From NCBI GenBank assembly GCA_009914755.4, contig CP086569.2:1664001-1728000 (forward strand): DNA of 64,000 bases. Reading direction: 5' to 3'. Shown here piece after piece: positions 908 to 60,424 of this stretch. A model generated the notes under the pieces. That model had not been told where the DNA came from and ran no database searches. It worked only from the letters and a program-made list of their open reading frames with translations. This DNA comes from the human T2T-CHM13v2.0 reference genome, Homo sapiens. The stretch's first letter is position 1. Every line of letters starts with the position of its first letter. The translations under genes and the position numbers were made by a program.

Positions 908-1913
<1,006 letters not shown>

Positions 1914-5961: not shown

Positions 5962-6259
<298 letters not shown>

Positions 6260-6611
6260 GGCAAATGAAACATTAAGGATCAGACTGAGTTGCCGTGCCA
6301 TTTATACATGGAGAAAACTCCAGAGGGATCTCATGTCCAAGGACCAGGACACAGCCAGGTAACAGCAAAGCTTCCATGCAACTGACAGGGTGAAAAAAAT
6401 AGCGTGGATGGTCCCCACCGAGAAAGAAACCCAACACATTTTCCAGTGGAGAAAATGGGACTGGTGGGAGAACATCACGACGACGACGGTGCAGCAACTC
6501 AATCTACGCGCAGAGGTTATCTGGATTCAGCAGAAAAGGAAGGTGGCAGGTGTGACCGGTTTGCGTTTCATAAATATTTGCAACGCTTTTTAATTAATTA
6601 GTTAGTTTACT

Positions 6612-6898
6612 ATTTTTGAGATGGAGTTTCGCTCTTGTTGCCCAAGCTGGAGGGCGGTGGCGCGATCTCGGCTCACTGCAACCTCTGCCTCAGCTTCATG
6701 CAATTCTCCTGCCTCAGCCTCCTGAGTAGCTGGGATTACAAGCGCCTGCCAGCACGCCCGGCTAATTTTTGAATTTTTAGTACAGATGGGGTTTCTCCAA
6801 ATTGGCCAGGCTTGTGTCAAACTCTTGACCTCAGGTGATCTGCCCGCCTCGGCCTCCCAAAGTGCTGGGATTACAGGTGTGAACCACTGCACCTGGCC
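6612..6898 (-). mobile_element. Alu
   Basis: tttttgagatggagtttcgctcttgttgcccaagctggagggcggtggcgcgatctcggctcactgcaacctc ... cccaaagtgctgggattacaggtgtgaaccactgcacctggcc. Confidence 0.92.
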
Positions 6899-7346
6899 AC
6901 ATTTTTCCCCTCTTACAATGACAGTATCATGTTGCATCAGGGGCCAACTCCGCTTCATTCTGACCAAATCTTTACGAATTGCATCTGCAAAGGCTCTATT
7001 TCCAAACGAGGTCACACTTGAGCTTCTGAGCAGACGTGAATTTGAGGGGTACATGTTTCAACCCCATTCACATCAACGTCTTTTTCTTCTTTAGCAATCA
7101 GTGAAGATAATAAGGTCATTTTTATTCTGAGAGGAAATGTGAGTTCGTCTCGTCTCAGAGGATTGCTCAGAGTCCAGTTGAGCATGGCTGGGGTGCTAGG
7201 CTGTGCCGTTCTTGCTCTAAGCCCGAGGGATAACTAATTTCCATTATTTTGTTCTTGCCGCCTCATAATTTGTCTACATGGGGGTGAGGAGAGTGAATGT
7301 CCTGTTACAGGAAGCTGTTGCGGGTGGACTATTTAAAGGGATTTCA

Positions 7347-8642
7347 GGCCAGGTGCGGCAGCTTATGCCTGTCATCCCACCACTTTGGGAGGCCGAGGAG
7401 GGTGGATCACAAGGTCAGGAGTTCGAGACCAGCCTGGCCGATATGGTGAAACTCCATCTCTACTAAAAATACAAAAATTAGCCGGGTGTGCTGTCGGGCG
7501 CCTGTAATCCCAGCTACTCAGGAGGCTGAGGCAGGAGAATCTCTTAGAACCCGGGAGGCGGAGGTTGCAGTGAGCCAGATTGGGCCACTGCACTCCAGCC
7601 TGGGTGACAAGAGGGAGACTCCATCTCAAAAAAAATCATAAAATAAAAAATTAATTAATTAAAAAGGCTAGGTGCAGTGGCTCATGCCTGTAATCCCAGC
7701 ACTTTGGGAGGCCGAGGTGGGCAGATCACCTGAGGTTGGGGGTTTGAGACCATCCTGGCCAACATGGTGAAACCCCATCTCTAGTAAAATACAAAAATTA
7801 GCTGGGTGTGGTGTCGGGTGCTTGTAATCTCAGCTACTCAGGAGGCTGAGGCAGAATCTTAGAATCCAGGAGGTGGAGGTTGCAGTGAGCCGAGATCAAG
7901 CCATTGCACTCCAGCCTGGGCGACAAGAGGGAGACTCTGTCTCAAAAAAATACATAATATAATAAAAATAAATAAATAATAAAATAGGCCAGGCACGGTG
8001 GTTCACGCCTGTAGTCCCAGCACTTTGGGAGGCCAAGGCGGGTGGATCACCTGATGTCAGGTGTTCGAGACCAGCCTGGCCAACATGGTGAAACCCCATC
8101 TCTACGAAAAATACAAAAATTAGGTGGGTGTGGTGTCGGGCGCCTGTACTCCCAGCTTCTCAGCAAGGTGAGGCAGGAGAATCTCTGAGAATCCGGGAGG
8201 TGGAGGTTGCAGTGAACTGAGATTGGGCCACTGCACTCCAGCCTGGGCGACAAGAGGGAGACTCTGTCTCAAAAAATATATATATATAAAATAAATAATT
8301 AATAAAATAGGTCAGGTGCACTAGCTCATGCCTGTCATCCCAGCACTTTGGGAGGCCAAGGCAGGTGGATCACCTGATGTCAGGACTTCGAGACCAGCCT
8401 GGCCAACATGGTGAAACCTCGTCTCTACTAAAAATACAAAAATTAGCCGGGTGTGGTGTCGGGCGCCTGTAATCCCAGCTTCTCAGGAGGCTGAGGCAGG
8501 AGAATCTCTTAGAACCCCGGAGGCAGAGGTTGCAGTGAGCTGAGATTGCACCACTACACTCCAGCCTGGGCGACAAGAGGGGGACTCCATCTAAAAAAAA
8601 AAATGATAAAAAATAAATAATATAAAAAGTAAAATAAATAAA
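7347..8642 (+). repeat. Fourfold tandem array of a ~323-bp unit = Alu + A/T-rich flank (Alus at ~7347-7633, 7666-7950, 7987-8278, 8311-8600)
   Basis: All four Alus share the private variants gtgtggtgtcgggcgcctgta, gagaatctcttagaacc.gggagg and gggcgacaagagggagactc. The same flank, aaaaaa.a.ataa.ataaataaataat.aaaatag, precedes the next copy. Period is about 321-324 bp. Confidence 0.85.
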
Positions 8643-9366
8643 AGGATTTCAGAGGCATCTAACCAAGTAAGGACCCGGCCAAGCATGTATGTTGAAGACA
8701 AGCTGAGAAGGCTTTATAGCAATTAACAAAAAAAAACAGCTGGTAACAACAGCCAGTCTGGGGGTGTAAAAATGGAACTACCATTGGTAACAGGACCTTC
8801 CGTTCCTTCTAATGACCTCTTTGAAGGTACGAGTGATTTACACTCCATCATAACCCTCTTGGCCCCTGGGGCCTCGTCTCAGCATCCGTTCCGTAGGCAG
8901 GAGGCACGGTTCTCGGTGTTTCCGGAGACCAACCCTGTTTTGTTTCTTTGGTAAAGCATAGAGCGTGGTGCTATTGACGTCGGGAGAATACCACGGCTTT
9001 GAAAACATTATTCTCAGTGAACGGAAGCCTGTCGCTGAAGACCACGTATCCTGTGATTTCATTCAGATGAAAGGTTCAGAATAGACCAGTCCAGACACAA
9101 AGCAGATTAGTGGTTTCACAGGGGCTGGGGTGGGGGTGGGAAGGGAGTGGGGTCATGGGGAAAGAGTGTGGGGTTTCTTTGTCTTCTGCAAGGGATGAAA
9201 ATATTGTAATCTACCCACAGTCATGCTTCTCTGCATCTGTGAATATCCTAAAAGCCACTCAATGGTAAATTGAATTGTCCATGACCAGAGGGGCCGGTGC
9301 ACGTGACAGGCAGAGGTAGGAGACCCCATCCTAGCATCCACTGTTGACATTCTAAAAGTGACTGTC

Positions 9367-11384: not shown

Positions 11385-14300
11385 TAAAAAGAACAACAGT
11401 AATAATATGATACTACCACTGCATGAGAGCAGTAATAACAACAACAGTAATACAATACCACCGCCGTGTGAGAGCAGTAATAACTACAACAGTAATACGA
11501 TACCACCGCTGCATGAGAGCAGTCATAATCACAACAGTAATATGATACTACCGCCGCATGAGAGCAACAACAGTAATATGATACTACTGCCGCATGAGAG
11601 CAGTAATAACAACAGTAATATGATACTACCACTACATGAGAGCAGTCATAATCACAACAGTAACATGACACCACCGCCGCATCAGAGCAGTAATAACAAC
11701 AACAGTAATATGATACTACCGCCGCATGAGAGCAGTAATAACAACACTAATATGATACTACCACTACATGAGAGCAGTCATAATCACAACAGTAACATGA
11801 CACCACCGCCGCATGAGCAGTAATAACAACAACAGTAATATGATACTACCGCCGCATGAGAGCAGTAATCACAACAGTAATATGATACTACCGCTGCATG
11901 AGAGCAGTAATAACAGTAATATGATACTACCGCCGCATGAGAGCAGTAATAACAGTAATATGATACTACCGCCGCATGAGAGCAGTAATAACAACAGTAA
12001 TATGATACTACCGCCGCATGAGAGCAGTCATAATCACAACAGTAATATGATACTACCGCCGCATGGGAGCAGTAATAACAACAACAGTAATATGATACTA
12101 CCGCCGCATGAGAGCAGTAATAACAACAGTAATATGATACTACCGCTGCATGAGAGCAGTAATAACAGTAATATGATACTACCGCCGCATGAGAGCAGTA
12201 ATAACAACAGTAATATGATACTACCACTACATGAGAGCAGTCATAATCACAACAGTAATATGATACTACCACTACATGAGAGCAGTCATAATCACAACAG
12301 TAATATGATACTACCACTACATGAGAGCAGTCATAATCACAACAGTAATATGATACTACCGCCGCATGGGAGCAGTAATCACAACAGTAATATGATACTA
12401 CCGTTGCATGAGAGCAGTAATAACAACAACAGTAATATGATACTACCGCCACATGAGAGCAGTAATCACAACAGTAATATGATACTACCGCCGCATGAGA
12501 GCAGTCATAATCACAACAGTAATATGATACTACCGCCACATGAGAGCAGTAATAACAACAGTAATATGATACTACCACTACATGAGAGCAGTCATAATCA
12601 CAACAGTAATATGATACTACCACTACATGAGAGCAGTCATAATCACAACAGTAATATGATACTACCACTACATGAGAGCAGTCATAATCACAACAGTAAT
12701 ATGATACTACCGCTGCATGAGAGCAGTAATAACAACAGTAATATGATACTACCGCCGCATGAGAGCAACAACAGTAATATGATACTACTGCCGCATGAGA
12801 GCAGTAATAACAACAGTAATATGATACTACCGCCGCATGAGAGCAGTAATAACAACAGTAATATGATACTACCACTACATGAGAGCAGTCATAATCACAA
12901 CAGTAATATGATACTACCGCCGCATGAGAGCAGTAATCACAACAGTAATATGATACTACCGCTGCATGAGAGCAGTAATAACAGTAATATGATACTACCG
13001 CCACATGAGAGCAGTAATAACAGTAATATGATACTACCGCCGCATGAGAGCAGTAATAACAACAGTAATATGATACTACCGCCGCATGAGAGCAGTCATA
13101 ATCACAACAGTAATATGATACTACCACTACATGAGAGCAGTCATAATCACAACAGTAATATGATACTACCGCTGCATGAGAGCAGTAATAACAACAGTAA
13201 TATGATACTACCGCCGCATGAGAGCAGTAATAACAGTAATATGATACTACCGCCGCATGAGAGCAGTCATAACAGTAATATGATACTACCGCCGCATGAG
13301 AGCAGTAATAACAACAGTAATATGATACTACCGCTGCATGAGAGCAGTAATAACAACAGTAATATGATACTACCACTACATGAGAGCAGTCATAATCACA
13401 ACAGTAATATGATACTACCGCCGCATGGGAGCAGTAATCACAACAGTAATATGATACTACCGTTGCATGAGAGCAGTAATAACAACAACAGTAATATGAT
13501 ACTACCGCCGCATGAGAGCAGTCATAATCACAACAGTAATATGATACTACCGCCGCATGAGAGCAGTCATAATCACAACAGTAATATGATACTACCGCCA
13601 CATGAGAGCAGTAATAACAACAGTAATATGATACTACCACTACATGAGAGCAGTCATAATCACAACAGTAATATGATACTACCACTACATGAGAGCAGTC
13701 ATAATCACAACAGTAATATGATACTACCACTACATGAGAGCAGTCATAATCACAACAGTAATATGATACTACCGCTGCATGAGAGCAGTAATAACAACAG
13801 TAATATGATACTACCGCCACATGAGAGCAGTAATAATCACAACAGTAATATGATACTACCGCCGCATGAGAGCAGTAATCACAACAGTAATATGATACTA
13901 CCGCCACATGAGAGCAGTAATAACAGTAATATGATACTACCGCCACATGAGAGCAGTAATCACAACAGTAATATGATACTACCACTACATGAGAGCAGTC
14001 ATAATCACAACAGTAATATGATACTACCGCTGCATGAGAGCAGTAATAACAACAGTAATATGATACTACCGCCACATGAGAGCAGTAATAATCACAACAG
14101 TAATATGATACTACCACTACATGAGAGCAGTCATAATCACAACAGTAATATGATACTACCGCCACATGAGAGCAGTAATAACAACAGTAATATGATACTA
14201 CCGCCGCATGAGAGCAGTAATAACAGTAATATGATACTACCGCCACATGAGAGCAGTAATAACAGTAATATGATACTACCGCCACATGAGAGCAGTAATC

Positions 14301-15289
14301 ACAACAGTAATATGATACTACCACTACATGAGAGCAGTCATAATCACAACAGTAATATGATACTACCGCCGCATGAGCAGTAATAACAGTAATATGATAC
14401 TACCGCCGCATGAGAGCAGTAATAACAACAGTAATATGATACTACCACTACATGAGAGCAGTAATAATCACAACAGTAACATGACACCACCGCCACATGA
14501 GAGCAGTAATAACAACAGCAATATACTACCGCCGCATGAGAGCAGTAATAACAACAGTAGTATGATACTACCACTACATGAGAGCAGTCATAATCACAAC
14601 AGTAATATGATACTACCGCCGCATGAGAGCAGTAATAACAGTAATATGATACTACCGCCGCATGAGAGCAGTAATAACAGTAATATGATACTACCGCCGC
14701 ATGAGAGCAGTAATAACAAGAGTAATATGATACCACCACCGCATGAGAGCAGTAATAACAACAGTAATATGATACCACCGCCACATGAGAGCAGTAATAA
14801 CAACAGTAATATGATACTACCACTACATGAGAGCAGTCATAATCACAACAGTAATATGATACTACCACTACATGAGAGCAGTCATAATCACAACAGTAAT
14901 ATGATACTACCGCCGCATGAGAGCAGTAATAACAGTAATATGATACTACCGCCACATGAGAGCAGTCATAATCACAACAGTAATATGATACTACCGCCGC
15001 ATGAGAGCAGTAATCACAACAGTAATATGATACTACCGCCACATGAGAGCAGTCATAATCACAACAGTAATATGATACTACCACTACATGAGAGCAGTCA
15101 TAATCACAACAGTAATATGATACTACCACTACATGAGAGCAGTAATAACAACAGTAATATGATACTACCGCCACATGAGAGCAGTCATAATCACAACAGT
15201 AATATGATACTACCGCTGCATGAGAGCAGTAATAACAAGAGTAATATGATACCACCGCCACATGAGAGCAGTAATAACAACAGTAATAT

Positions 15290-15312
<23 letters not shown>
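11385..15312. repeat. Large minisatellite/VNTR (A): about 90 tandem copies of a 39/42/45/48-bp unit (~3.9 kb)
   Basis: Units such as cagtaataacaacagtaatatgatactaccgccgcatgagag (42 bp), cagtcataatcacaacagtaatatgatactaccactacatgagag (45 bp) and cagtaataacagtaatatgatactaccgccgcatgagag (39 bp). Every unit length is a multiple of 3 and one frame per strand lacks stops. This explains the ORF-track ORFs 11813..14383 (+, 856 aa, SSNNNSNMILPPHE repeats) and 11784..14324 (-, 846 aa, SHAAVVSYYCCYYC repeats), plus 14373..15425 / 14344..15300. Confidence 0.97.
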
Positions 15313-16074
<762 letters not shown>

Positions 16075-16239: not shown

Positions 16240-16790
16240 TCTCACAGACTAGGTGGCTTAACCAACAGACATTGATTCTCCCACAGTCCTGGAGGCTGCA
16301 AGTCTGAGATCCAGGTGTGGGCAGGGCTGGTTCCTCCTGAGGCCTCTCTCCTTGGCTTGGAGACACTGTCTTCTCCCTGCAGCCTCACAGGGTCATCCCT
16401 CTGTGTGTGTCTGTGTCCTCACCTCCTCTTCTTATGAGATGCCTTAGTCCATTTCAGGCTGCTAACACAGAATACCATAGACTGGGTGACTTATAAACAA
16501 CAGACATTGATTCTCCCACAGTCCTGGAGGCTGGAAGTCTGAGATCCAGGTATGGGCAGGGCTGGTTCCTCCTGAGGCCTCTCTCCTGGGCTTGTAGACG
16601 CCGTCTTCTCCCTGTGCCCTCACAGGGTCATCCCTCTGTGTGTGTCTGTGTCCTCACCTCTTCTTCTTATGAGATGCCTTAGTCCATTTCAGGCTGCTAA
16701 CACAGAATACCATAGACTGGGTGACTTATGAGCAACAGACATTGATTCTCCCACAGTCAAGACAGGGGAAGACCATGGAGAGGAGGGTCA
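16240..16790 (+). mobile_element. Interspersed repeat (same family as 50480-51370 and 54250-55700; probably LTR/MaLR-related, name uncertain), internally duplicated ~2.2x with a ~240-bp period
   Basis: The block ...gggtgacttataaacaacagacattgattctcccacagtcctggaggctg.aagtctgagatccaggt.tgggcagggctggttcctcctgaggcctctctcc...cacagggtcatccctctgtgtgtgtctgtgtcctcacct...tcttatgagatgccttagtccatttcaggctgctaacacagaataccatagactgggtgactta occurs twice, at 16250-16490 and 16490-16730. Confidence 0.7.
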
Positions 16791-18707: not shown

Positions 18708-21700
18708 CAACAGGGAACAGATTTCAGCATGAGACCCAAACACCTCCACCCAGTCCCACCTCCATCACTGGGAACCAGATTTCAGCATGAGACCCAAACC
18801 CCTCACCCAGCCCCACCTCCATCACTGGGAACAAGATTTCAGCATGAGACCAAACACCCTCACACAGACTCACCTCCAACAATGGGGACCAGATTTCAGC
18901 ACGAGACCAAACACCCTCACCGAGCCCCACCTCCAACACTAGGGACCAGATTTCAACATGAGAAACAAACACCTCCATCCAGCCTCACCACTAATACGGG
19001 GGACCAGATTTCAGCATGAGACCCAAACACCCTCACCCAGCCCCACCTCCCACACTGGGAACAAGATTCCAGCATGAGACCAAACACCCTCACACAGACT
19101 CACCTCCAACAATGGGGACCAGATTTCAGCAATAGACCCAAACACCCTCACCCAGCCCCACCTCCAAACTGGGGACCAGATTTCAGCATGAGACCCAAAC
19201 ACACTCACGCAGCCCCAACTCCAACACTGGGGACCAGATTTCAGCATGAGACACACACACCTCCACCCGGCCTCACCCCCAACACTGGAGACCAGATTTC
19301 AGCATGAGACCCAAACACCCTCATCCAGACCCACCTCCAACAATGGGGACCAGATTACAGCATGAGACCCAAACACTTCCACCCAGCCCCACCGCCAACA
19401 CTGGGGACCAGATTTCAGCAGGAGACCCAAACACCCTCATCCAGACCCAACTCCAACATTGGTGACCAGATTTCAGCATCAGAACCAAACACCCTCACCC
19501 AGCCCCACCCCTAACACTGGGGACAAGATTTCAGCATGAGACCCAAACAACTCTATCCAGCCTCACCACCAACACTGGGGACCAGATTTCAGCATGACGC
19601 CTAAACACCCTCACACAGACCCACCTCCAACACTGGAGACAGATTTCAGCATGACATGCAAACATCTCGACCCAGCCCCACCTCCAACACTGGGAACCAG
19701 ATTTCAGAATGAGACCCAAACACTTCCACCCAGCCCCACCTCCAACATTGGGGAGCAGATTTCAGAATGAGACCCAAACACCTCCACCTGGCCTCACCTC
19801 CAACTTCAGGGACCAGATTTCAGCATAAGACACAAACACCTCCACCCAGACCCACATCAAACACTGGGAACAAGATATCAGCATGAGACCCAAACACGTC
19901 CACCCAGCCCCACCTCCAACAATGGGGACCAGATTTAAGCATGAGGCGAAAACACCCTCACCCAGACCCACCTCCAACACTGGGGACCAGATTTCCGCAT
20001 GGCACCCAAACACGCTCATCCAGACCCACCTCCAACATCGGTGAAAAGATTTCAGCATGAGACCCAAACACGCTCACCCAGCCCCACCCCTAACACTGGG
20101 AACAAGATATCAGCATGAGACCCAAACACCCTCACCCAGCCCCACCTCCAACAATGGGGACCAGATTTCAGCATGAGACCCAAACACCTCCACCTGGCCT
20201 CATCCCCAACACTGGGGACCAGATTTCAACATGAGACGCAAACACCTCCACCTGGCCTCACCTCCAACTTCAGGGACCAGATTACAGCATGAGACCCAAA
20301 CACCTCCACCCAGACCTACCTACAACACTGGGAAACAGATTTCTGCCTGAGACCCAGACACCTCCATCCAGCTTCACCACCAGCACTGGGGACCAGATTT
20401 CAGCATGAGACCCAAACACCCTCAGCCAGCCCCACCTCCAACACTGCGGACGAGATTTCAGCATGAGACCCAAACATCCTCACCCAGCCCCACCCCTAAC
20501 ACTTGGGACCAGATTTCAGCATGAGACCCAAACACCCTCACCCAGCACCCCCTCCAACACTGGGGATGAGATTTCAGCATGAGACCCAAACACCCTCACA
20601 GAGCCCCACCCCTAACGCTGGGGACCAGTTTTCAGCATGAGACCCAAACACCTCCATCCAGCCTCACCACCAACACTGGGGACCAGATTTCAGCATGAGG
20701 CCCAAATACCCTCACCCAGACCCACCTCCAACACTGGGGACGAGATTTCAGCATGAGGCCCAAACACCCTCACGCAGACCCACCTCCAAAACTGGGGACC
20801 AGATTTCAGCATGAGACCCAAACACCTCCACCCAGCCTCAACACCAATACTGGAGACCAGATTTCAACATGAGACCCAAACACCTCCACCCGGCCTCAAC
20901 ACCAATACTGGAGACCAGATTTCAACATGAGACCCAAACACCTCCACCCAGCCTCACATCCAATACTGGAGACCAGATTTCAGCATGAAGCCCAAACACC
21001 CTCACCCAGCCCCATCTCCAATAATGGGTACCGGATTTCATCATGAGACCCAAACGCTTCAACCCAGCCCCAACTGCAACACTGGGGAACAGATTTCAGC
21101 ATGAGACACAAACACCCTCCCCAAGACCCACCTCAAACACTGGGGACCAGATTTCAGCATGAGACCCAAACACCTTCACCCAGCACCACCCCTAACACTG
21201 GGGACCAGATTTCAGCATGAGACCCAAACACCTTCACCCAGCACCACCCCTAACACTGGGGGCCAGATTTCAGCATGAGACCCAAACACCCTCACCCAGC
21301 CCCACCTCCAACACTGGGGACAAGATTTCAGCATGAGACCCAAACACCCTCACCCAGCCCCACCCCTAACACTTGGGGACCAGATTTCAGCATGAGACCC
21401 AAACACCTCCATCCAGCCTCACCTCACCTGGGACCAGATTTCAGCATGAGACCCGAACACCTCCATCCAGCTTCACCACCAACACTGGGGACCAGATTTC
21501 AGCATGAGGCCCAAATACCCTCACCCAGACCCACCTCCAACACTGGGGACCGGATTTCAGCATGAGACCCAAACACCTCCATCCAGCCTCACCACCAACA
21601 CTGGGGACCAGATTTTAGCATGAGACCCAAACACCCTCACCCAGCCCCACCCCTAACACTTGGGACCAGATTTCAGCATGAGACCCGAACACCCTCACCC

Positions 21701-22325
21701 AGCACCCCCTCCAACATTGGTGACCAGATTTCAGCATGAGACCCAAACACCCGCACCCAGCCCCACCCCTAACACTGGGGACCAGAATTCAGCATGAGAC
21801 CCAAACACCTCCATCCAGACTCACCTCCAACTTTGGGGACCAGATTTCATCATGAGATCCAAACACCTCCATCCGACTGGCCTCACCTCCAACAGTTGGG
21901 GCCAGATTTCAGCATGAGACCCAAACACCTCCATCCGGCCGGCCTCACCTCCAACATTGGGGACCAGATTTCAGCGTGAGACCCAGACACCCTCACCCAG
22001 CACCCCCCCAACACTGGGGACCAGATTTCAGCATGAGAGCGAAACACCTCCATCCAGCCTCACCACCAATACTGGGGACCAGATTTCTGCATGAGACTCA
22101 AACACCTCCATGCAGCCGGCTTCACCTCCAACACTGGGGCGAGATTTCAGCATGATACCCAAACACTTCCACCTGGCCTCACCTCCAACACTGGGGCGAG
22201 ATTTCAGCATGATACCCAAACACTTCCACCTGGCCTCACCTGTAACAGTGGAGACCAGATTTCAGCATGATTCCCAAACACCTCCACCTGGCCTCACCTC
22301 CAACATCAGGGATCAGATTTCAGCA
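18708..22325. repeat. Large minisatellite/VNTR (B): about 62 tandem copies of a ~57-bp unit (~3.6 kb)
   Basis: Unit ggggaccagatttcagcatgagacccaaacaccctcacccagccccacctccaacact with variants (cctccatccagcctcaccaccaacact etc.). The ORF-track peptides show a 19-aa periodicity (GTRFQHETKHPH..PPP.L). The array terminates in ...cctcacctccaacatcagggatcagatttcagcatgagatttggagaagacaaacatgc. Confidence 0.95.
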
Positions 22326-22479
22326 TGAGATTTGGAGAAGACAAACATGCCGACTATATCAGCCACCGCGCCTGGCCACAGATATTTAGTCCTTAGCAAC
22401 TGGTGTCCTTATGAAAAGGGGGAAATGGGATGTGAATGGCGAGAAGCTATGGGAACTTTGCAGTGATGCTGCCCCAAGT

Positions 22480-25084: not shown

Positions 25085-25720
<636 letters not shown>

Positions 25721-26236
25721 CCAGGGCCAGTGGCTCAAGCCTGTAATCTCAGCACTTTGGGAGGCCAAGGCCGGCGGATCACCTGAGGTCAGGAGTTCGA
25801 GACAAGCCTGGCCAACATGGTGAAACCCTGTCTCTACTAAAAATACAAAAGTTAGCCAGGCATGGTGGCGGGCACCTGTAATCCCAACTACTTGGGAGGC
25901 TGAGGCAGGAGAATCGCTTAAACCTGGGAGGTGGAGGGGCCAGGCGTGGTGCCTCATACCTGTAATCCCAGCACTTTGGGAGGCCAAGGCAGGCGGATTC
26001 ACGAGGTTAGGAGTTTGAGGCCAGTTTGACCAACATGGTGAAGCCCTGTCTCTACTAAAAATACAAAAATTAGCCAGGCGTGGTGGTGCACACCTGTAAT
26101 CCCAGCTACCCTGGAGGCAGGAGGAGGCAGGAGAATTGCTTGAACCTGGAAGGCGGAGGTTGCAGTGAGCTGAGATCATACCACTGCACTGCAGTCTGGG
26201 CGACAAAGTAAGAGTGTGTTTCAAAAAAAAAAAAAA
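25721..26236 (+). mobile_element. Two adjacent Alus (first 3'-truncated at ~25937; second complete, 25938-26236)
   Basis: ggccagggccagtggctcaagcctgtaatctcagcactttgggaggccaaggccggcggatcacctgaggtc... then ggccaggcgtggtgcctcatacctgtaatcccagcactttgggaggccaaggcaggcggattcacgaggttagg...gtgtgtttcaaaaaaaaaaaaaaa. Confidence 0.9.
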
Positions 26237-27184: not shown

Positions 27185-27875
<691 letters not shown>

Positions 27876-31935: not shown

Positions 31936-32775
31936 CCACCAGGTTCCTTCCATGGCATGTGGGCATTATGGGAGCTACAGTTCAAGATGAGATTTGGGTG
32001 GGGACACAGCCAAACCCTGTCACATGGTTGGACCTTTCCTCTGCACGTCTGTATTCCAACATTAGAAAAATGTGCCCAGGATAACCACTGGTTCCTCCCA
32101 TGGCATGTGGGCATTATGGGAGCTACAGTTCAAGATGAGATTTGGGTGGGGACACAGCCAAACCCTATCACATGGTTGGACTTTTCCTCTGCACGTCTGT
32201 ATTTGAACATTAGAGAAATGTGCCCAGGATAACCACTGGTTCCACCCATGGCATGTGGGCATTATGGGAGCTACAGTTCAAGATGAGATTTGGGTGGGGA
32301 CACAGCCAAACCCTGTCACATGGTTGGACCTTTCCTCTGCACGTCTGTATTCCAACATTAGAAAAATGTGCCCAGGATAACCACTGGTTCCTCCCATGGC
32401 ATGTGGGCATTATGGGAGCTACAGTTCAAGATGAGATTTGGGTGGGGACACAGCCAAACCCTATCACATGGTTGGACCTTTCCTCTGCACGTCTGTATTT
32501 GAACATTAGAGAAATGTGCCCAGGATAATCACTGGTTCCACCCATGGCATGTGGGCATTATGGGAGCTACAGTTCAAGATGAGATTTGGGTGGGAACACA
32601 GCCAAACCCTATCACATGGTTGGACCTTTCCTCTGCGCGTCTGTATTCCAACATTAGAAAAATGTGCCCAGGATAATCACTGGTTCCTCCCATGGCATGT
32701 GGGCATTATGGGAGCTACAGTTCAAGATGAGATTTGGGTGGGGACACAGCCAAACCCTATGGTCCCAAAATGATG
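31935..32775 (-). repeat. 148-bp tandem repeat x ~5.7 formed from the 5' terminus of the THE1-like LTR plus ~80 bp of adjoining sequence
   Basis: Unit ccatggcatgtgggcattatgggagctacagttcaagatgagatttgggtggggacacagccaaaccct.tcacatggttggacctttcctctgcacgtctgtatt..aacattaga.aaatgtgcccaggataa.cactggttcc.c. The ORF track shows the same 61-102-aa peptides (MPTCHGRNQWLSWAHFSNVGIQTCRGKVQPCDRVWLCPHPNLILNCSSHNAHMPW...) repeated at 31929, 32062, 32210, etc. Confidence 0.9.
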
Positions 32776-38620: not shown

Positions 38621-38929
<309 letters not shown>

Positions 38930-44758: not shown

Positions 44759-45386
<628 letters not shown>

Positions 45387-49401: not shown

Positions 49402-49751
<350 letters not shown>

Positions 49752-49962: not shown

Positions 49963-50446
<484 letters not shown>

Positions 50447-50479: not shown

Positions 50480-51370
50480 GCTACTGTGTGTCAGCCTTTT
50501 CAGTTTGCTGTAACAAAATATCACATTGCTTATAAACAACAGCCATTTATTGCTCATAGTTCTGCAGGCTGAATATCCAAGATCAAGGCTTGGCAGCTTC
50601 AGAGCCTGGGGAGAACCCACTTCCTGGTTCATAGACGGCACCTTCCCACAGTGTCCTCACATGGTGGAAGACACGAGGGAGCTCTGTGGGGTCTCGCTTC
50701 CTGGTTCATAGACGGCACCTTCCCACAGTGTCCTCACATGGTGGAAGAGACGAGGGAGCTCTGTGGGGTCTCGCTTCCTGGTTCATAGACGGCACCTTCC
50801 CACTGTGTCCTCACATAGTGGAAGAGACGAGGGAGCTCTGTGGGGTCTCGCTTCCTGGTTCATAGACGGCACCTTCCCACAGTGTCCTCACATGGTGGAA
50901 GAGACGAGGGAGCTCTGTGGGGTCTCGCTTCCTGGTTCATAGACGGCACCTTCCCACTGTGTCCTCACATAGTGGAAGAGACGAGGGAGCTCTGTGGGGT
51001 CTCGCTTCCTGGTTCATAGACGGCACCTTCCCACAGTGTCCTCACATGGTGGAAGAGACGAGGGAGCTCTGTGGGGTCTCGCTTCCTGGTTCATAGACGG
51101 CACCTTCCCACTGTGTCCTCACATGGTGGAAGAGACGAGGGAGCTCTGTGGGGTCTCGCTTCCTGGTTCATAGACGGCACCTTCCCACTGTGTCCTCACA
51201 TGGTGGAAGAGACGAGGGAGCTCTGTGGGGTCTCTTTTATAAGGACGCTGATAATCGTGTGCGGATCTGTTGCCTCCAAATCTCACGCTGAAATCTGATT
51301 CCCAATGTTGGAGGTAGGGCTGGCTGGAGGCATGTGGGTCACGGAAGTGGATTCCTCATACACGGCTTGG
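50480..51370 (+). mobile_element. Interspersed repeat (same family as 16240-16790 and 54250-55700) containing an internal 77-bp x 8 tandem expansion
   Basis: 5' part ...gctgtaacaaaatatcacattgcttataaacaacagccatttattgctcatagttctgcaggctgaatatccaagatcaaggcttggcagc.... 3' part tcttttataaggacgctgataatcgtgtgcggatctgttgcctccaaatctcacgctgaaatctgattcccaatgttggaggtagggc.... Confidence 0.7.
50621..51236 (+). repeat. 77-bp tandem repeat x 8 with 154-bp higher-order periodicity
   Basis: ttcctggttcatagacggcaccttcccacagtgtcctcacatggtggaagagacgagggagctctgtggggtctcgc starts at 50621, 50698, 50775, 50852, 50929, 51006, 51083 and 51160. Copies alternate between cacagtg...catggtgg and cactgtg...catagtgg. Confidence 0.92.
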
Positions 51371-53686: not shown

Positions 53687-53984
53687 GCCAGGCGCAGTGG
53701 CTTATGCCTGTAATCCCAGCACTTTGAGAGGCCGAGGCGGGCGGATCACAAGGTCAGGAGATCGAGACCATCCTGGCTAACACGGTGAAACCCCATCTCT
53801 ACTAAAAATACAAAAAAAAATTAGCTGGGCGTGGTGGCGGGCACCTATAGTCCCAGCTACTCCGGAGGCTGAGACAGGAGAATGGCGTGAAACAGGGAGA
53901 CGGAGCTTGCAGTGAGCCTAGATCGCTCCACTGCACTCCAGCCTGGGCGACAGAGCAAGACTCCGTCAAAAAAAAAAAAAAAAA
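53687..53984 (+). mobile_element. Alu
   Basis: ggccaggcgcagtggcttatgcctgtaatcccagcactttgagaggccgaggcgggcggatcacaaggtcaggagatcgagaccatcctggctaacacggtgaaacccc...gacagagcaagactccgtcaaaaaaaaaaaaaaaa. Confidence 0.92.
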
Positions 53985-54150
53985 TAGCTGGACATGGTGG
54001 CAGTCACCTGTAATCCCAGCTACTCGGGAGGCTGAAGCAGAGAGTCGTTTGAACCTCGGAGGCGGAGGCGGCAGCGAGCTGAGATCGCACCACTGCACTC
54101 GAGGCTGGGCAACAGAGTGAGACTCCGTCTCAAAAAAATAAATAATAAAT
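53985..54150 (+). mobile_element. Alu right-arm fragment
   Basis: atagctggacatggtggcagtcacctgtaatcccagctactcgggaggctgaagcagagagtcgtttgaacctcggaggcggaggcggcagcgagctgagatcgcaccactgcactcgaggctgggcaacagagtgagactccgtctcaaaaaaataaataataaataaaac. Confidence 0.85.

Positions 54151-59890: not shown

Positions 59891-60424
<534 letters not shown>

What the first reader, a model, noticed from the sequence alone, without database searches (positions are those of the whole stretch)
7347..8642. Four tandem copies of an Alu together with its A/T-rich 3' flank (~323-bp period)
The four Alus share several private substitutions (gtgtggtgtcgggcgcctg; gagaatctcttagaacc; gggcgacaagagggagactc) and the same 3' flank (aaaaa.a.ataa.ataaataaataat.aaaatag). 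They therefore arose by tandem duplication of one insertion rather than four retrotranspositions. This effectively creates a 323-bp satellite.
Basis: seen in the sequence. Interest (0 to 1): 0.5.

Follow-up and report, generated by a model that had tools for sequence, protein, structure and literature searches.

The report
Fossil four-copy tandem Alu array
One ancient human Alu element, together with its A/T-rich tail, was copied head-to-tail into four units soon after it inserted; this is a real but ordinary example of a transposon-derived tandem repeat, with no sign of function.

Summary
Window 7347-8638 holds four head-to-tail units of a full-length AluS body plus a 38-45 nt A/T-rich tail (unit lengths 319/321/323/329 bp; TRF period 323, 4.0 copies, 84% matches). 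One 13/14 target-site duplication (TAAAGGGATTTCAG / TAAAAGGATTTCAG) brackets the whole array, and no copy of it lies between units. All four units carry a set of rare right-arm changes (G149T, +A at 200, +A at 263, C268G; G197T in three, the site lost to a deletion in U2). None of 52 other full-length Alus in the window has more than two. Their tails are more alike than random quartets of Alu tails (p about 0.0002-0.002). However, overall identity between units (86.7%) barely exceeds that of age-matched unrelated Alus (83.2%), and a substitution-only tree does not robustly group them. The amplification therefore happened very early in the element's life, roughly 30 Myr ago, and the array has decayed since. 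The best reading is in-situ amplification of a single insertion. The mechanism of the first step is unresolved: DNA-level duplication on a 3-bp AGG microhomology, or concatenation during reverse transcription. "Satellite" overstates four diverged copies. This is a new member of a known kind and of low interest.

The parts
7334..7347 (+). 5' copy of the target-site duplication, TAAAGGGATTTCAG. The final G is ambiguous with Alu nucleotide 1. It is preceded by TATTT, so the inferred L1 endonuclease site is TATTT/AAAG.
   Evidence: family D8: 13/14 match to 8639-8652. The analytic chance of such a match in the 80 nt after the array is about 1e-5. The empirical 0.002 comes from random draws that overlap the two true sites.
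7347..7627 (+). U1 Alu body, full length (consensus positions 1-282). Carries all five rare markers. Has the private CAC--AAGG form at positions 64-65.
   Evidence: (89.1% to the AluS probe).
7628..7665 (+). U1 A/T-rich tail (AAAAAAAATCATAAAATAAAAAATTAATTAATTAAAAA), abutting U2 nucleotide 1 with no TSD copy.
7666..7943 (+). U2 Alu body. It is the most decayed unit (4 CpGs left) and has two small deletions next to the TCTTAGAA marker. Four of the five markers are unambiguous; the G197T site is lost in a deletion.
7944..7986 (+). U2 A/T-rich tail.
7987..8270 (+). U3 Alu body, full length, with all five markers.
8271..8309 (+). U3 A/T-rich tail.
8310..8593 (+). U4 Alu body, full length, with all five markers. 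Its right arm is 96% identical to that of U1 at non-CpG sites.
8594..8638 (+). U4 A/T-rich tail, running into the 3' TSD.
8639..8652 (+). 3' copy of the target-site duplication, TAAAAGGATTTCAG.
   Evidence: family D8.

Best explanation
One AluS-type element inserted by L1-mediated target-primed reverse transcription at TATTT/AAAGGGATTTCAG, producing a 13-14 bp target-site duplication. The roughly 320-bp segment running exactly from Alu nucleotide 1 to the end of its tail was then amplified in place to four head-to-tail copies. The first copy was most likely made at the DNA level by replication slippage or microhomology-mediated template switching. The trinucleotide AGG occurs at both ends of the unit (tcAGGcc at the 5' junction, aaAGGat at the 3' junction). 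The later copies most likely arose by unequal exchange between misaligned units. By then the tail had already degenerated from poly(A) into an A/T pattern, and the body already carried about eight differences from the AluS consensus. All copies arose within a short interval, roughly 30 Myr ago. Since then each unit has decayed independently, and the array is an inert fossil. SHOWN: the array, the single outer TSD, the clean junctions, the shared rare markers, the homologous tails and the near-equal pairwise divergence. INFERRED: the DNA-level mechanism, the role of the AGG microhomology, the order of duplications, the dating and the absence of function.
For: Array and period. One 13/14 TSD pair around the whole array and none between units. 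Rare markers: G149T is in 4/4 units against 1/52 other Alus; +A at 200 against 0/52; G197T against 3/52; +A at 263 against 4/52; C268G against 3/52. No other Alu has more than 2 of the 5, and 42/52 have none. Three CpG transitions are shared by 4/4 units against 0.48 expected (P=0.013), while 3/4 sharing is at chance level (4 observed vs 3.63 expected). Tails are more alike than random quartets of Alu tails (0.0002 plain; 0.0016 with A-matches down-weighted). From established knowledge, new Alu copies carry near-homopolymeric A tails, so a shared patterned tail implies copying after the tail had aged. Left arms are related too: G14A is shared by U1/U4 and G68T by U3/U4, each seen in 0/52 other Alus. 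Timing: units are 4.3-5.9% from the array ancestor at non-CpG sites. The ancestor differs from the general consensus by about 1% once the CpG-column transversions are counted (1/233 at strictly non-CpG sites), plus two 1-bp insertions. All six pairwise distances are similar. Local precedent: a two-copy 382-bp tandem duplication at 15284-16014 contains about 70 bp of non-Alu DNA plus a whole Alu, at 84.5% identity, so it is of the same age. The window is also packed with other tandem arrays. The category is documented in PMC3389668.
Against: Unit boundaries coincide exactly with Alu nucleotide 1 and the end of the tail. A DNA-level duplication with arbitrary breakpoints would do this only about 1% of the time (inference), whereas retrotransposition-coupled models predict it. 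Overall identity between units is barely above the age-matched background, and the NJ clade is not robust. The case therefore rests on a handful of characters, all of the rarest ones in the right arm (the chance of five out of five falling there is about 0.04). One marker may be a subfamily state. The shared branch could be inheritance from a source element rather than in-situ ageing. U1 differs from U2-U4 by a 2-bp indel that also distinguishes Alu subfamilies. No orthologue or second haplotype spanning the array could be obtained.
Confidence: 0.75

Rival explanations
1. The array, or at least a dimer that later expanded by unequal exchange, was built during a single retrotransposition event. 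On reaching the 5' end of one Alu RNA, the L1 reverse transcriptase switched to the 3' end of another RNA from the same source (or the RNAs were ligated beforehand). This would deposit head-to-tail full-length Alu+tail units inside one TSD pair.
For: It explains without coincidence why the units run exactly from Alu nucleotide 1 to the tail end, with clean junctions and a single outer TSD. The units are almost as old as the insertion and nearly equidistant from one another. Full-length, sense-oriented Alu chimeras with LINE-1 inside one TSD pair, attributed to template switching or RNA ligation, are documented in PMC13174262. The shared markers and tail would simply be those of the source RNA.
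Against: It requires RNAs from the same rare lineage: 0/52 other window Alus carry the marker set. That source would have to differ from the AluS consensus by about eight changes including two insertions and three decayed CpGs, and carry a roughly 40-nt interrupted A/T tail. From established knowledge of Alu activity determinants, such features make a poor retrotransposition template. Three successive switches are needed for four units unless DNA-level expansion is added anyway. I found no report of Alu-Alu concatemers formed this way. A DNA-level duplication of similar size and age exists 7 kb away.
Confidence: 0.15
2. Four separate Alu retrotranspositions occurred, each landing in the A-rich tail of the previous element. 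The units are similar either because all came from one rare source element or because gene conversion later spread the right-arm and tail sequence among neighbours.
For: Head-to-tail adjacency is common in this window: 9/9 close consecutive full-length Alu pairs are in the same orientation, and five of them are unrelated to the array. The TSDs of tail insertions would be invisible A-rich sequence, so the single visible TSD does not exclude this. Overall identity is close to that of independent Alus. U1 carries the 2-bp-shorter CAC--AAGG form that 12 other Alus in the window have. All five rare markers lie in the right arm.
Against: A source lineage seen in 0/52 other Alus has an upper 95% frequency bound of about 5.6%. 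Three further hits from it have probability at most about 2e-4 (inference). The five unrelated adjacent pairs share only 0-2 rare states, against 4-5 for the U1/U3/U4 pairs. The tails are homologous rather than independent poly(A) remnants. The left arms also share rare states pairwise, so conversion limited to the right arm does not suffice. The regular 319-329 bp unit length is not expected from independent tails.
Confidence: 0.05
3. Assembly artefact: a single Alu was mis-expanded, or unrelated Alu reads were mis-joined.
For: None specific. Repeats in general are prone to mis-assembly.
Against: The units differ from each other at 10-18% of positions and by private indels, so they are not copies of one read set. 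Two independent human-derived contigs cross the U1|U2 junction at 99.9-100% identity.
Confidence: 0.01

Closest known systems
Transposable-element-derived tandem repeats / Alu-derived minisatellites (Ahmed & Liang 2012, PMC3389668; Jurka & Gentles 2006, cited there but not held in the library)
   Same: A tandem array whose unit is Alu sequence, generated locally by copying one unit from another rather than by transposition. An old AluS with more than three units fits their observation that older subfamilies carry more repeats. The initiation mechanism is unclear, as for about 94% of their cases.
   Different: Most catalogued cases repeat a fragment of an Alu (tens of bp to about 200 bp). Here the unit is the complete element plus its tail, with boundaries exactly at the element ends. 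Units are about 84% alike, below that study's 95% filter, so an array like this would not have been in their set. The flanking direct repeat (the TSD) is not reiterated between units, so the Haber-Louis flanking-repeat model they invoke does not apply directly.
Composite or arrayed repeats that include a whole Alu in T2T-CHM13, such as 5SRNA_Comp with an AluY, 128 units (bioRxiv 10.1101/2021.07.12.451456)
   Same: A whole Alu is carried along as part of a tandemly amplified DNA unit. Amplification occurs at the DNA level after the Alu inserted.
   Different: Those units contain substantial non-Alu sequence, are high-copy and nearly identical (recent or homogenised). Here the unit is only Alu plus tail, there are four copies, and they are old and unhomogenised. 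The window's own 382-bp duplication at 15284-16014 is the closer analogue of that class.
Chimeric retrocopies made by L1 reverse-transcriptase template switching or RNA ligation (U6/L1 and Alu/L1 chimeras; PMC13174262)
   Same: Sense-oriented, full-length upstream partner; clean junctions at RNA ends; one TSD pair and an EN-like target around the composite.
   Different: Known chimeras join different RNA species, usually with L1 as the 3' partner. A four-fold concatemer of one Alu lineage, with full tails between units, was not found in the papers I could search.
Alu elements with multiplied monomers (seen in this same window at 909-1736 and 27185-27716)
   Same: Local tandem amplification of Alu sequence with junctions of the form A-run|GGCC(A/G)GG, of similar age (83-87% unit identity).
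   Different: There the period is one monomer (about 133-135 bp), which is explained by misalignment of the homologous left and right arms. Whole-unit amplification cannot arise that way.

Membership tests
Alu SINE insertion (L1-mediated TPRT) | Dimeric body of about 282 bp homologous to the Alu consensus | tested here: met
   blastn with an AluS consensus written from memory: the hits to U1 and U3 cover consensus positions 1-282, and those to U2 and U4 start at positions 6 and 15, at 87-91% identity. All four units align full length with 52 other window Alus. No unit reaches the Rfam Metazoa_SRP gathering score; only two other Alus do.
Alu SINE insertion (L1-mediated TPRT) | 3' A-rich tail | tested here: met
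   38-45 nt A/T-rich tails after each body.
Alu SINE insertion (L1-mediated TPRT) | Target-site duplication of about 7-20 bp directly flanking the element, at a TT/AAAA-like site | tested here: met
   Met for the array as a whole: TAAAGGGATTTCAG / TAAAAGGATTTCAG, 13/14, preceded by TATTT. Not met for individual units: the sequence between units is only tail. A-rich TSDs of tail insertions would be undetectable.
Alu SINE insertion (L1-mediated TPRT) | Assignment to a named subfamily (Dfam/Repbase) | not testable with these tools
   No Dfam or RepeatMasker library is available. The S-type left arm (CACCTGAGGTCAGGAGTTCGAGACCAGCCTGGCCAACATGG) is recognised from memory only.
TE-derived tandem repeat (minisatellite/VNTR class) | At least two head-to-tail copies of a unit derived from a TE | tested here: met
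   TRF reports 4.0 copies with period 323; the unit is Alu plus tail.
TE-derived tandem repeat (minisatellite/VNTR class) | Units related to each other by local copying rather than to other genomic copies of the TE | tested here: met
   Met within the window through the rare-marker set and homologous tails. It is only weakly met by overall identity or the tree. A genome-wide test was not possible: the collection scans found nothing, but the control shows they contain only a few hundred Alus.
TE-derived tandem repeat (minisatellite/VNTR class) | Initiation explained by short direct repeats flanking the unit, or by a truncated terminal unit (slipped-strand models cited in PMC3389668) | tested here: inconclusive
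   The 14-bp TSD flanks the array but is not reiterated between units. Only a 3-bp AGG microhomology exists at the unit ends, and there is no truncated terminal unit.
TE-derived tandem repeat (minisatellite/VNTR class) | Copy-number variation between individuals (VNTR behaviour) | not testable with these tools
   Retrieved human contigs stop within U1 or U2. No pangenome or primate assemblies are available.
Satellite DNA | Long arrays (hundreds or more units) with homogenisation among units | tested here: not met
   Four units. Pairwise identity is 82-89%, no higher than expected from independent decay since one early burst. There is no clear concerted evolution.
Template-switch / ligation chimeric retrocopy | Composite of full-length sense RNAs with clean junctions inside one TSD pair at an EN-like site | tested here: met
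   This is a resemblance in architecture only.
Template-switch / ligation chimeric retrocopy | Composite present from the moment of insertion (no orthologue with fewer parts) and a source RNA identifiable elsewhere | not testable with these tools
   This needs primate orthologues and a whole-genome search for marker-bearing Alus.

The most novel reading that the evidence does not exclude
The array is a concatemer produced in a single retrotransposition event. The L1 reverse transcriptase repeatedly re-initiated on Alu RNAs of one source, or copied a ligated or read-through multimeric Alu RNA (the array contains no TTTT Pol III terminator). On this reading, whole-element SINE tandem arrays could be born directly by TPRT rather than by DNA duplication.
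Probability: 0.12. Interest if true: 0.45.

Novelty: new member of a known kind. Interest (0 to 1): 0.15.

Why it matters
It matters little on its own. It is a clean, datable example of how an interspersed repeat can seed a tandem repeat, in a region that is unusually rich in such events. Two modest points of interest remain. First, the unit boundaries coincide exactly with the retroelement's ends. That is unexpected for a random DNA duplication and makes the locus a possible test case for whether reverse-transcriptase template switching can create SINE concatemers. Second, it is a methodological caution. Because amplification followed insertion so closely, unit-to-unit identity is almost indistinguishable from that of unrelated Alus, so identity thresholds (such as the ≥95% filter used in genome-wide surveys) miss old TE-derived arrays. 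Only rare shared characters, tails and TSD architecture reveal them. There is no evidence of any function, and at about 84% identity the units are probably too diverged for frequent unequal recombination today.

Tried and rejected
1. It has low power. Unit pairs average 85.5% against 78.5% for all Alu pairs. Against age-matched Alus the figures are only 86.7 vs 83.2%, and 90.0 vs 88.9% at non-CpG sites.

2. NJ tree with bootstrap of all 56 full-length Alus. The four-unit clade appears with all columns but has only 49/200 support, and 2/200 without CpG columns. Distance methods ignore the two diagnostic insertions.

3. Random-quartet count of shared derived columns and automated counts of shared rare states. 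Both are confounded by AluJ/subfamily structure and by misalignment around U2's deletions, so I replaced them with motif-based counts.

4. Reconstructing the order of duplications from 2+2 splits. The counts are 7:4:1 for (14|23):(12|34):(13|24), but most are CpG columns where homoplasy is expected. The non-CpG split is 3:2:0. The order is unresolved, and evidence for mosaicism or gene conversion is not statistically compelling.

5. Arm-wise analysis to see whether only the right arm is shared. Both arms show a weak excess (p about 0.03 each), with no sign of a foreign left arm beyond U1's 2-bp indel.

6. Searching public collections for the marker combination, to test for a subfamily or find other copies of the locus. 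There were 0 hits in metagenome contigs and genome contigs. The consensus-state control found only 7 contigs, so the null is uninformative. A right-flank junction search in genome contigs also found nothing.

7. Exact-ORF look-ups to fetch other haplotypes or orthologues. Three left-flank ORFs are in the collection, and nine human-contaminant contigs were retrieved, but none extends beyond U2. Ten ORFs from inside the array and the right flank are absent.

8. Naming the locus from ORFs. The ORFs of at least 110 aa are mostly Alu-like, L1-like or repeat translations, with no obvious exon.

9. My first gapped pattern used a wrong gap range and returned nothing; it was corrected.

10. The empirical TSD null (0.002) is dominated by draws overlapping the true sites, so I replaced it with an analytic estimate of about 1e-5.

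Full report
**Observation.** The region reads as four consecutive, same-strand, full-length Alu elements, each followed by an A/T-rich tail.
- Tandem Repeats Finder reports one array at 7346-8621 with period 323, 4.0 copies, 84% matches and score 1793.
- I set the units at U1 7347-7665, U2 7666-7986, U3 7987-8309 and U4 8310-8638. Their lengths are 319, 321, 323 and 329 bp.
- The alignment-free result is the clearest. GACAAGAGGG and TCTNAGAAYC each occur exactly four times in the whole 64-kb window on both strands, once per unit.
- A combined-marker pattern hits only the array.
- Two independent human-derived contigs recovered from gut-metagenome assemblies match window 6214-7750 (99.9%) and 6488-7724 (100%). 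Both cross the U1|U2 junction. The window is therefore human and the structure is not an assembly artefact.

**Architecture.** A 14-nt direct repeat brackets the entire array: TAAAGGGATTTCAG at 7334-7347 and TAAAAGGATTTCAG at 8639-8652, matching at 13/14.
- The chance of such a match in the 80 nt after the array is about 1e-5. The 0.002 figure comes from random draws that overlap the true sites.
- The repeat starts after TATTT, which gives a TT/AAAA-like L1 endonuclease site.
- No copy of this repeat lies between units. Each tail abuts nucleotide 1 (GGCC/GGCT/GGTC) of the next Alu.
- The only sequence common to the two ends of a unit is the trinucleotide AGG (tcAGGcc at the 5' end, aaAGGat at the 3' end).

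**Background of the window.** The window is very Alu-dense. The blastn probe returned 80 hits, 56 of them near full length.
- Head-to-tail adjacency is common. All 9 consecutive full-length Alu pairs separated by 120 bp or less are in the same orientation, and 5 of them have nothing to do with this array.
- Adjacency alone is therefore weak evidence.
- A single visible TSD does not by itself exclude later Alus inserting into the first one's A-tail, because their own TSDs would be invisible A-rich sequence.

**Are the units related by descent?** Overall identity turns out to be a poor test.
- Unit pairs are 82-89% identical (mean 85.5%), against 78.5% for all other Alu pairs.
- Against 21 age-matched Alus the contrast shrinks to 86.7 vs 83.2% on all sites and 90.0 vs 88.9% at non-CpG sites.
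- An NJ tree recovers the four-unit clade with only 49/200 bootstrap support, and 2/200 without CpG columns.

**The rare characters are strong.**
- G149T is in 4/4 units against 1/52 other Alus.
- A 1-bp insertion giving TTAGAA is seen in 0/52 other Alus.
- G197T is seen in 3/52, a 1-bp insertion giving GACAAGAG in 4/52, and C268G in 3/52.
- U1, U3 and U4 carry all five markers. U2 carries four unambiguously, because the G197T site falls in a small deletion there.
- No other Alu has more than two markers, and 42/52 have none.
- Three CpG transitions are shared by all four units where 0.48 are expected (P=0.013). Sharing by three of four units is at chance level (4 observed vs 3.63 expected).
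- The left arms are related as well: G14A is shared by U1/U4 and G68T by U3/U4, each absent from the 52 other Alus.
- The four tails are more alike than random quartets of Alu tails from the same window (fraction reaching the observed value 0.0002; 0.0016 with A-matches down-weighted).
- From established knowledge, new Alu copies carry essentially homopolymeric A tails. A shared interrupted A/T pattern therefore means the copies were made after the tail had aged, or from a template that already had it.
- The five unrelated head-to-tail Alu pairs share only 0-2 rare states, against 4-5 among U1/U3/U4.

**Timing.**
- Each unit differs from the reconstructed array ancestor by 4.3-5.9% at non-CpG sites.
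- The ancestor differs from the general consensus by one strictly non-CpG substitution, two transversions in CpG columns, two 1-bp insertions and about three CpG transitions.
- The shared branch is therefore roughly one-fifth or less of the private branches.
- The six pairwise distances are similar (JC 0.074-0.124, mean 0.108), so all copies arose within a short interval.
- With the commonly used non-CpG rate of about 0.15% per Myr (recalled, not tested here), half the mean distance gives roughly 30-35 Myr. That is close to the age of the insertion itself.
- This is why overall identity has no power here.
- The 2+2 splits among units are 7:4:1, but most are CpG columns where homoplasy is expected. 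The non-CpG split is 3:2:0, so the order of duplications is unresolved.
- U1 and U4 have the most similar right arms (96% at non-CpG sites).
- U1 has CAC--AAGG where U2-U4 have CACCTGA(G/T)G. The shorter form occurs in 12 other Alus. This is either a private 2-bp deletion followed by CpG decay, or a short gene-conversion patch.

**Mechanism.** The best-supported reading is that one AluS insertion was amplified in place.
- For a DNA-level mechanism:
  - The tail and body had already aged when they were copied.
  - A two-copy 382-bp tandem duplication 7 kb away (15284-16014) contains about 70 bp of non-Alu DNA plus a whole Alu at 84.5% identity. This shows that DNA duplications of this size and age occurred here.
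  - The window is crowded with other tandem arrays: 45 bp x92, 58 bp x62, 148 bp x5.5, 77 bp x8, and Alu-monomer arrays of 135 bp x6.3 and 133 bp x3.9.
- Against it: the unit boundaries coincide exactly with the retroelement's ends. A random duplication would achieve that only about 1% of the time, unless the AGG microhomology directed it.
- The main rival predicts clean boundaries automatically. It is concatenation during one retrotransposition event by reverse-transcriptase template switching or RNA ligation, as documented for full-length sense Alu/LINE-1 chimeras (PMC13174262).
- That rival, however, needs several RNAs of one rare, already-degenerate lineage with a poor, interrupted tail.
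- Serial independent insertions into tails require three further hits from a lineage seen in 0/52 other Alus. They also do not explain the homologous tails or the related left arms.
- I assign about 0.75 to single-insertion in-situ amplification with a DNA-level first step favoured. I assign about 0.15 to an RT-coupled concatemer or dimer, about 0.05 to serial insertions (with or without conversion), and about 0.01 to artefact.

**What could not be tested.**
- Whether the marker set exists elsewhere in the genome. Scans of the metagenome and prokaryote-genome collections found nothing. The consensus-state control matched only 7 contigs, so these collections hold only a few hundred Alus and the null is uninformative.
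- Copy number in other haplotypes or primates. No retrieved contig spans the array, and further look-ups failed.

**Comparison with what is known.**
- TE-derived tandem repeats are catalogued genome-wide. There are 7,276 in human, of which 2,663 are Alu-associated according to the review PMC9659126, and most have unexplained initiation (PMC3389668).
- That survey required at least 95% unit similarity, which would exclude this array. Most Alu cases there repeat fragments rather than the complete element plus tail.
- Arrays whose unit carries a whole Alu are also described in T2T-CHM13 (bioRxiv 10.1101/2021.07.12.451456).
- This locus is therefore a new member of a known kind.
- Calling it a satellite is not justified: there are four copies, about 84% alike, with no homogenisation.

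**Verdict.** The first duplication step is unresolved, and there is no indication of function. Interest is low.

Noticed in passing
window 909-1836: An Alu whose left monomer is tandemly multiplied. TRF reports period 135 x 6.3 copies at 83% matches, with higher-order periods of 255 and 390 also reported. It is followed by one right arm and an (AAT)n tail. Junctions are of the form A-run|GGC.
   Followed up: partly
window 27185-27865: An Alu with four left monomers (133 bp x 3.9, 87% matches), each ending ...TACAAAAA and followed by G(G/A)CCAGG, then a single right arm (27717-27865).
   Followed up: partly
window 15284-16014: A two-copy tandem duplication with a 382-bp period. The unit is the edge of the 45-bp minisatellite plus unique sequence plus a whole Alu and its tail. 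Copies are 84.5% identical, so it is about the same age as the 323-bp array.
   Followed up: yes
window 11403-15315 and 18713-22330: Two large minisatellites: 45 bp (87-bp higher order) x about 92 copies at 88% matches, and 58 bp x about 62 copies at 82% matches. The first produces spurious ORFs of up to 856 aa on both strands.
   Followed up: no
window 31942-32760; 50620-51234; 16259-16758; 59945-60068: Young, highly homogeneous tandem repeats: 148 bp x5.5 (96%), 77 bp x8 (98%), 235 bp x2.1 (95%) and 61 bp x2 (96%). Together with the other arrays they suggest a VNTR-rich, possibly subtelomeric-type region. The locus was not identified.
   Followed up: no
window-wide: All 9 consecutive full-length Alu pairs separated by 120 bp or less are head-to-tail in the same orientation. 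This is consistent with a preference for A-tail insertion and/or local duplication.
   Followed up: partly
window 25719-26208; 44890-45233; 49981-50283; 53805-54142: Further partial Alu duplications. An Alu truncated at consensus position 219 directly abuts a new Alu start (218-bp period). There are right-arm-sized repeats of 188 and 162 bp, and a 134-bp x2.3 monomer repeat.
   Followed up: no
window 7347-8652 (+ strand); first TTTT at 8938: The whole four-unit array contains no TTTT. A Pol III transcript started in U1 would therefore meet no terminator until about 290 bp past the array. No evidence of transcription was sought.
   Followed up: no
loci L008-L016 (human DNA in gut-metagenome assemblies): The left flank and U1 occur on at least nine metagenome contigs. 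L008, L010 and L012-L014 are only 96.8-99.1% identical to the window, with the cluster variants P0002 and P0003 differing inside U1. These are probably chimeric short-read assemblies through Alus rather than haplotypes.
   Followed up: partly
window 38645-38792 and 49471-49618 (- strand): Only two of the roughly 60 Alus reach the Rfam Metazoa_SRP gathering score (72.9 and 75.8 bits). None of the four array units does.
   Followed up: no
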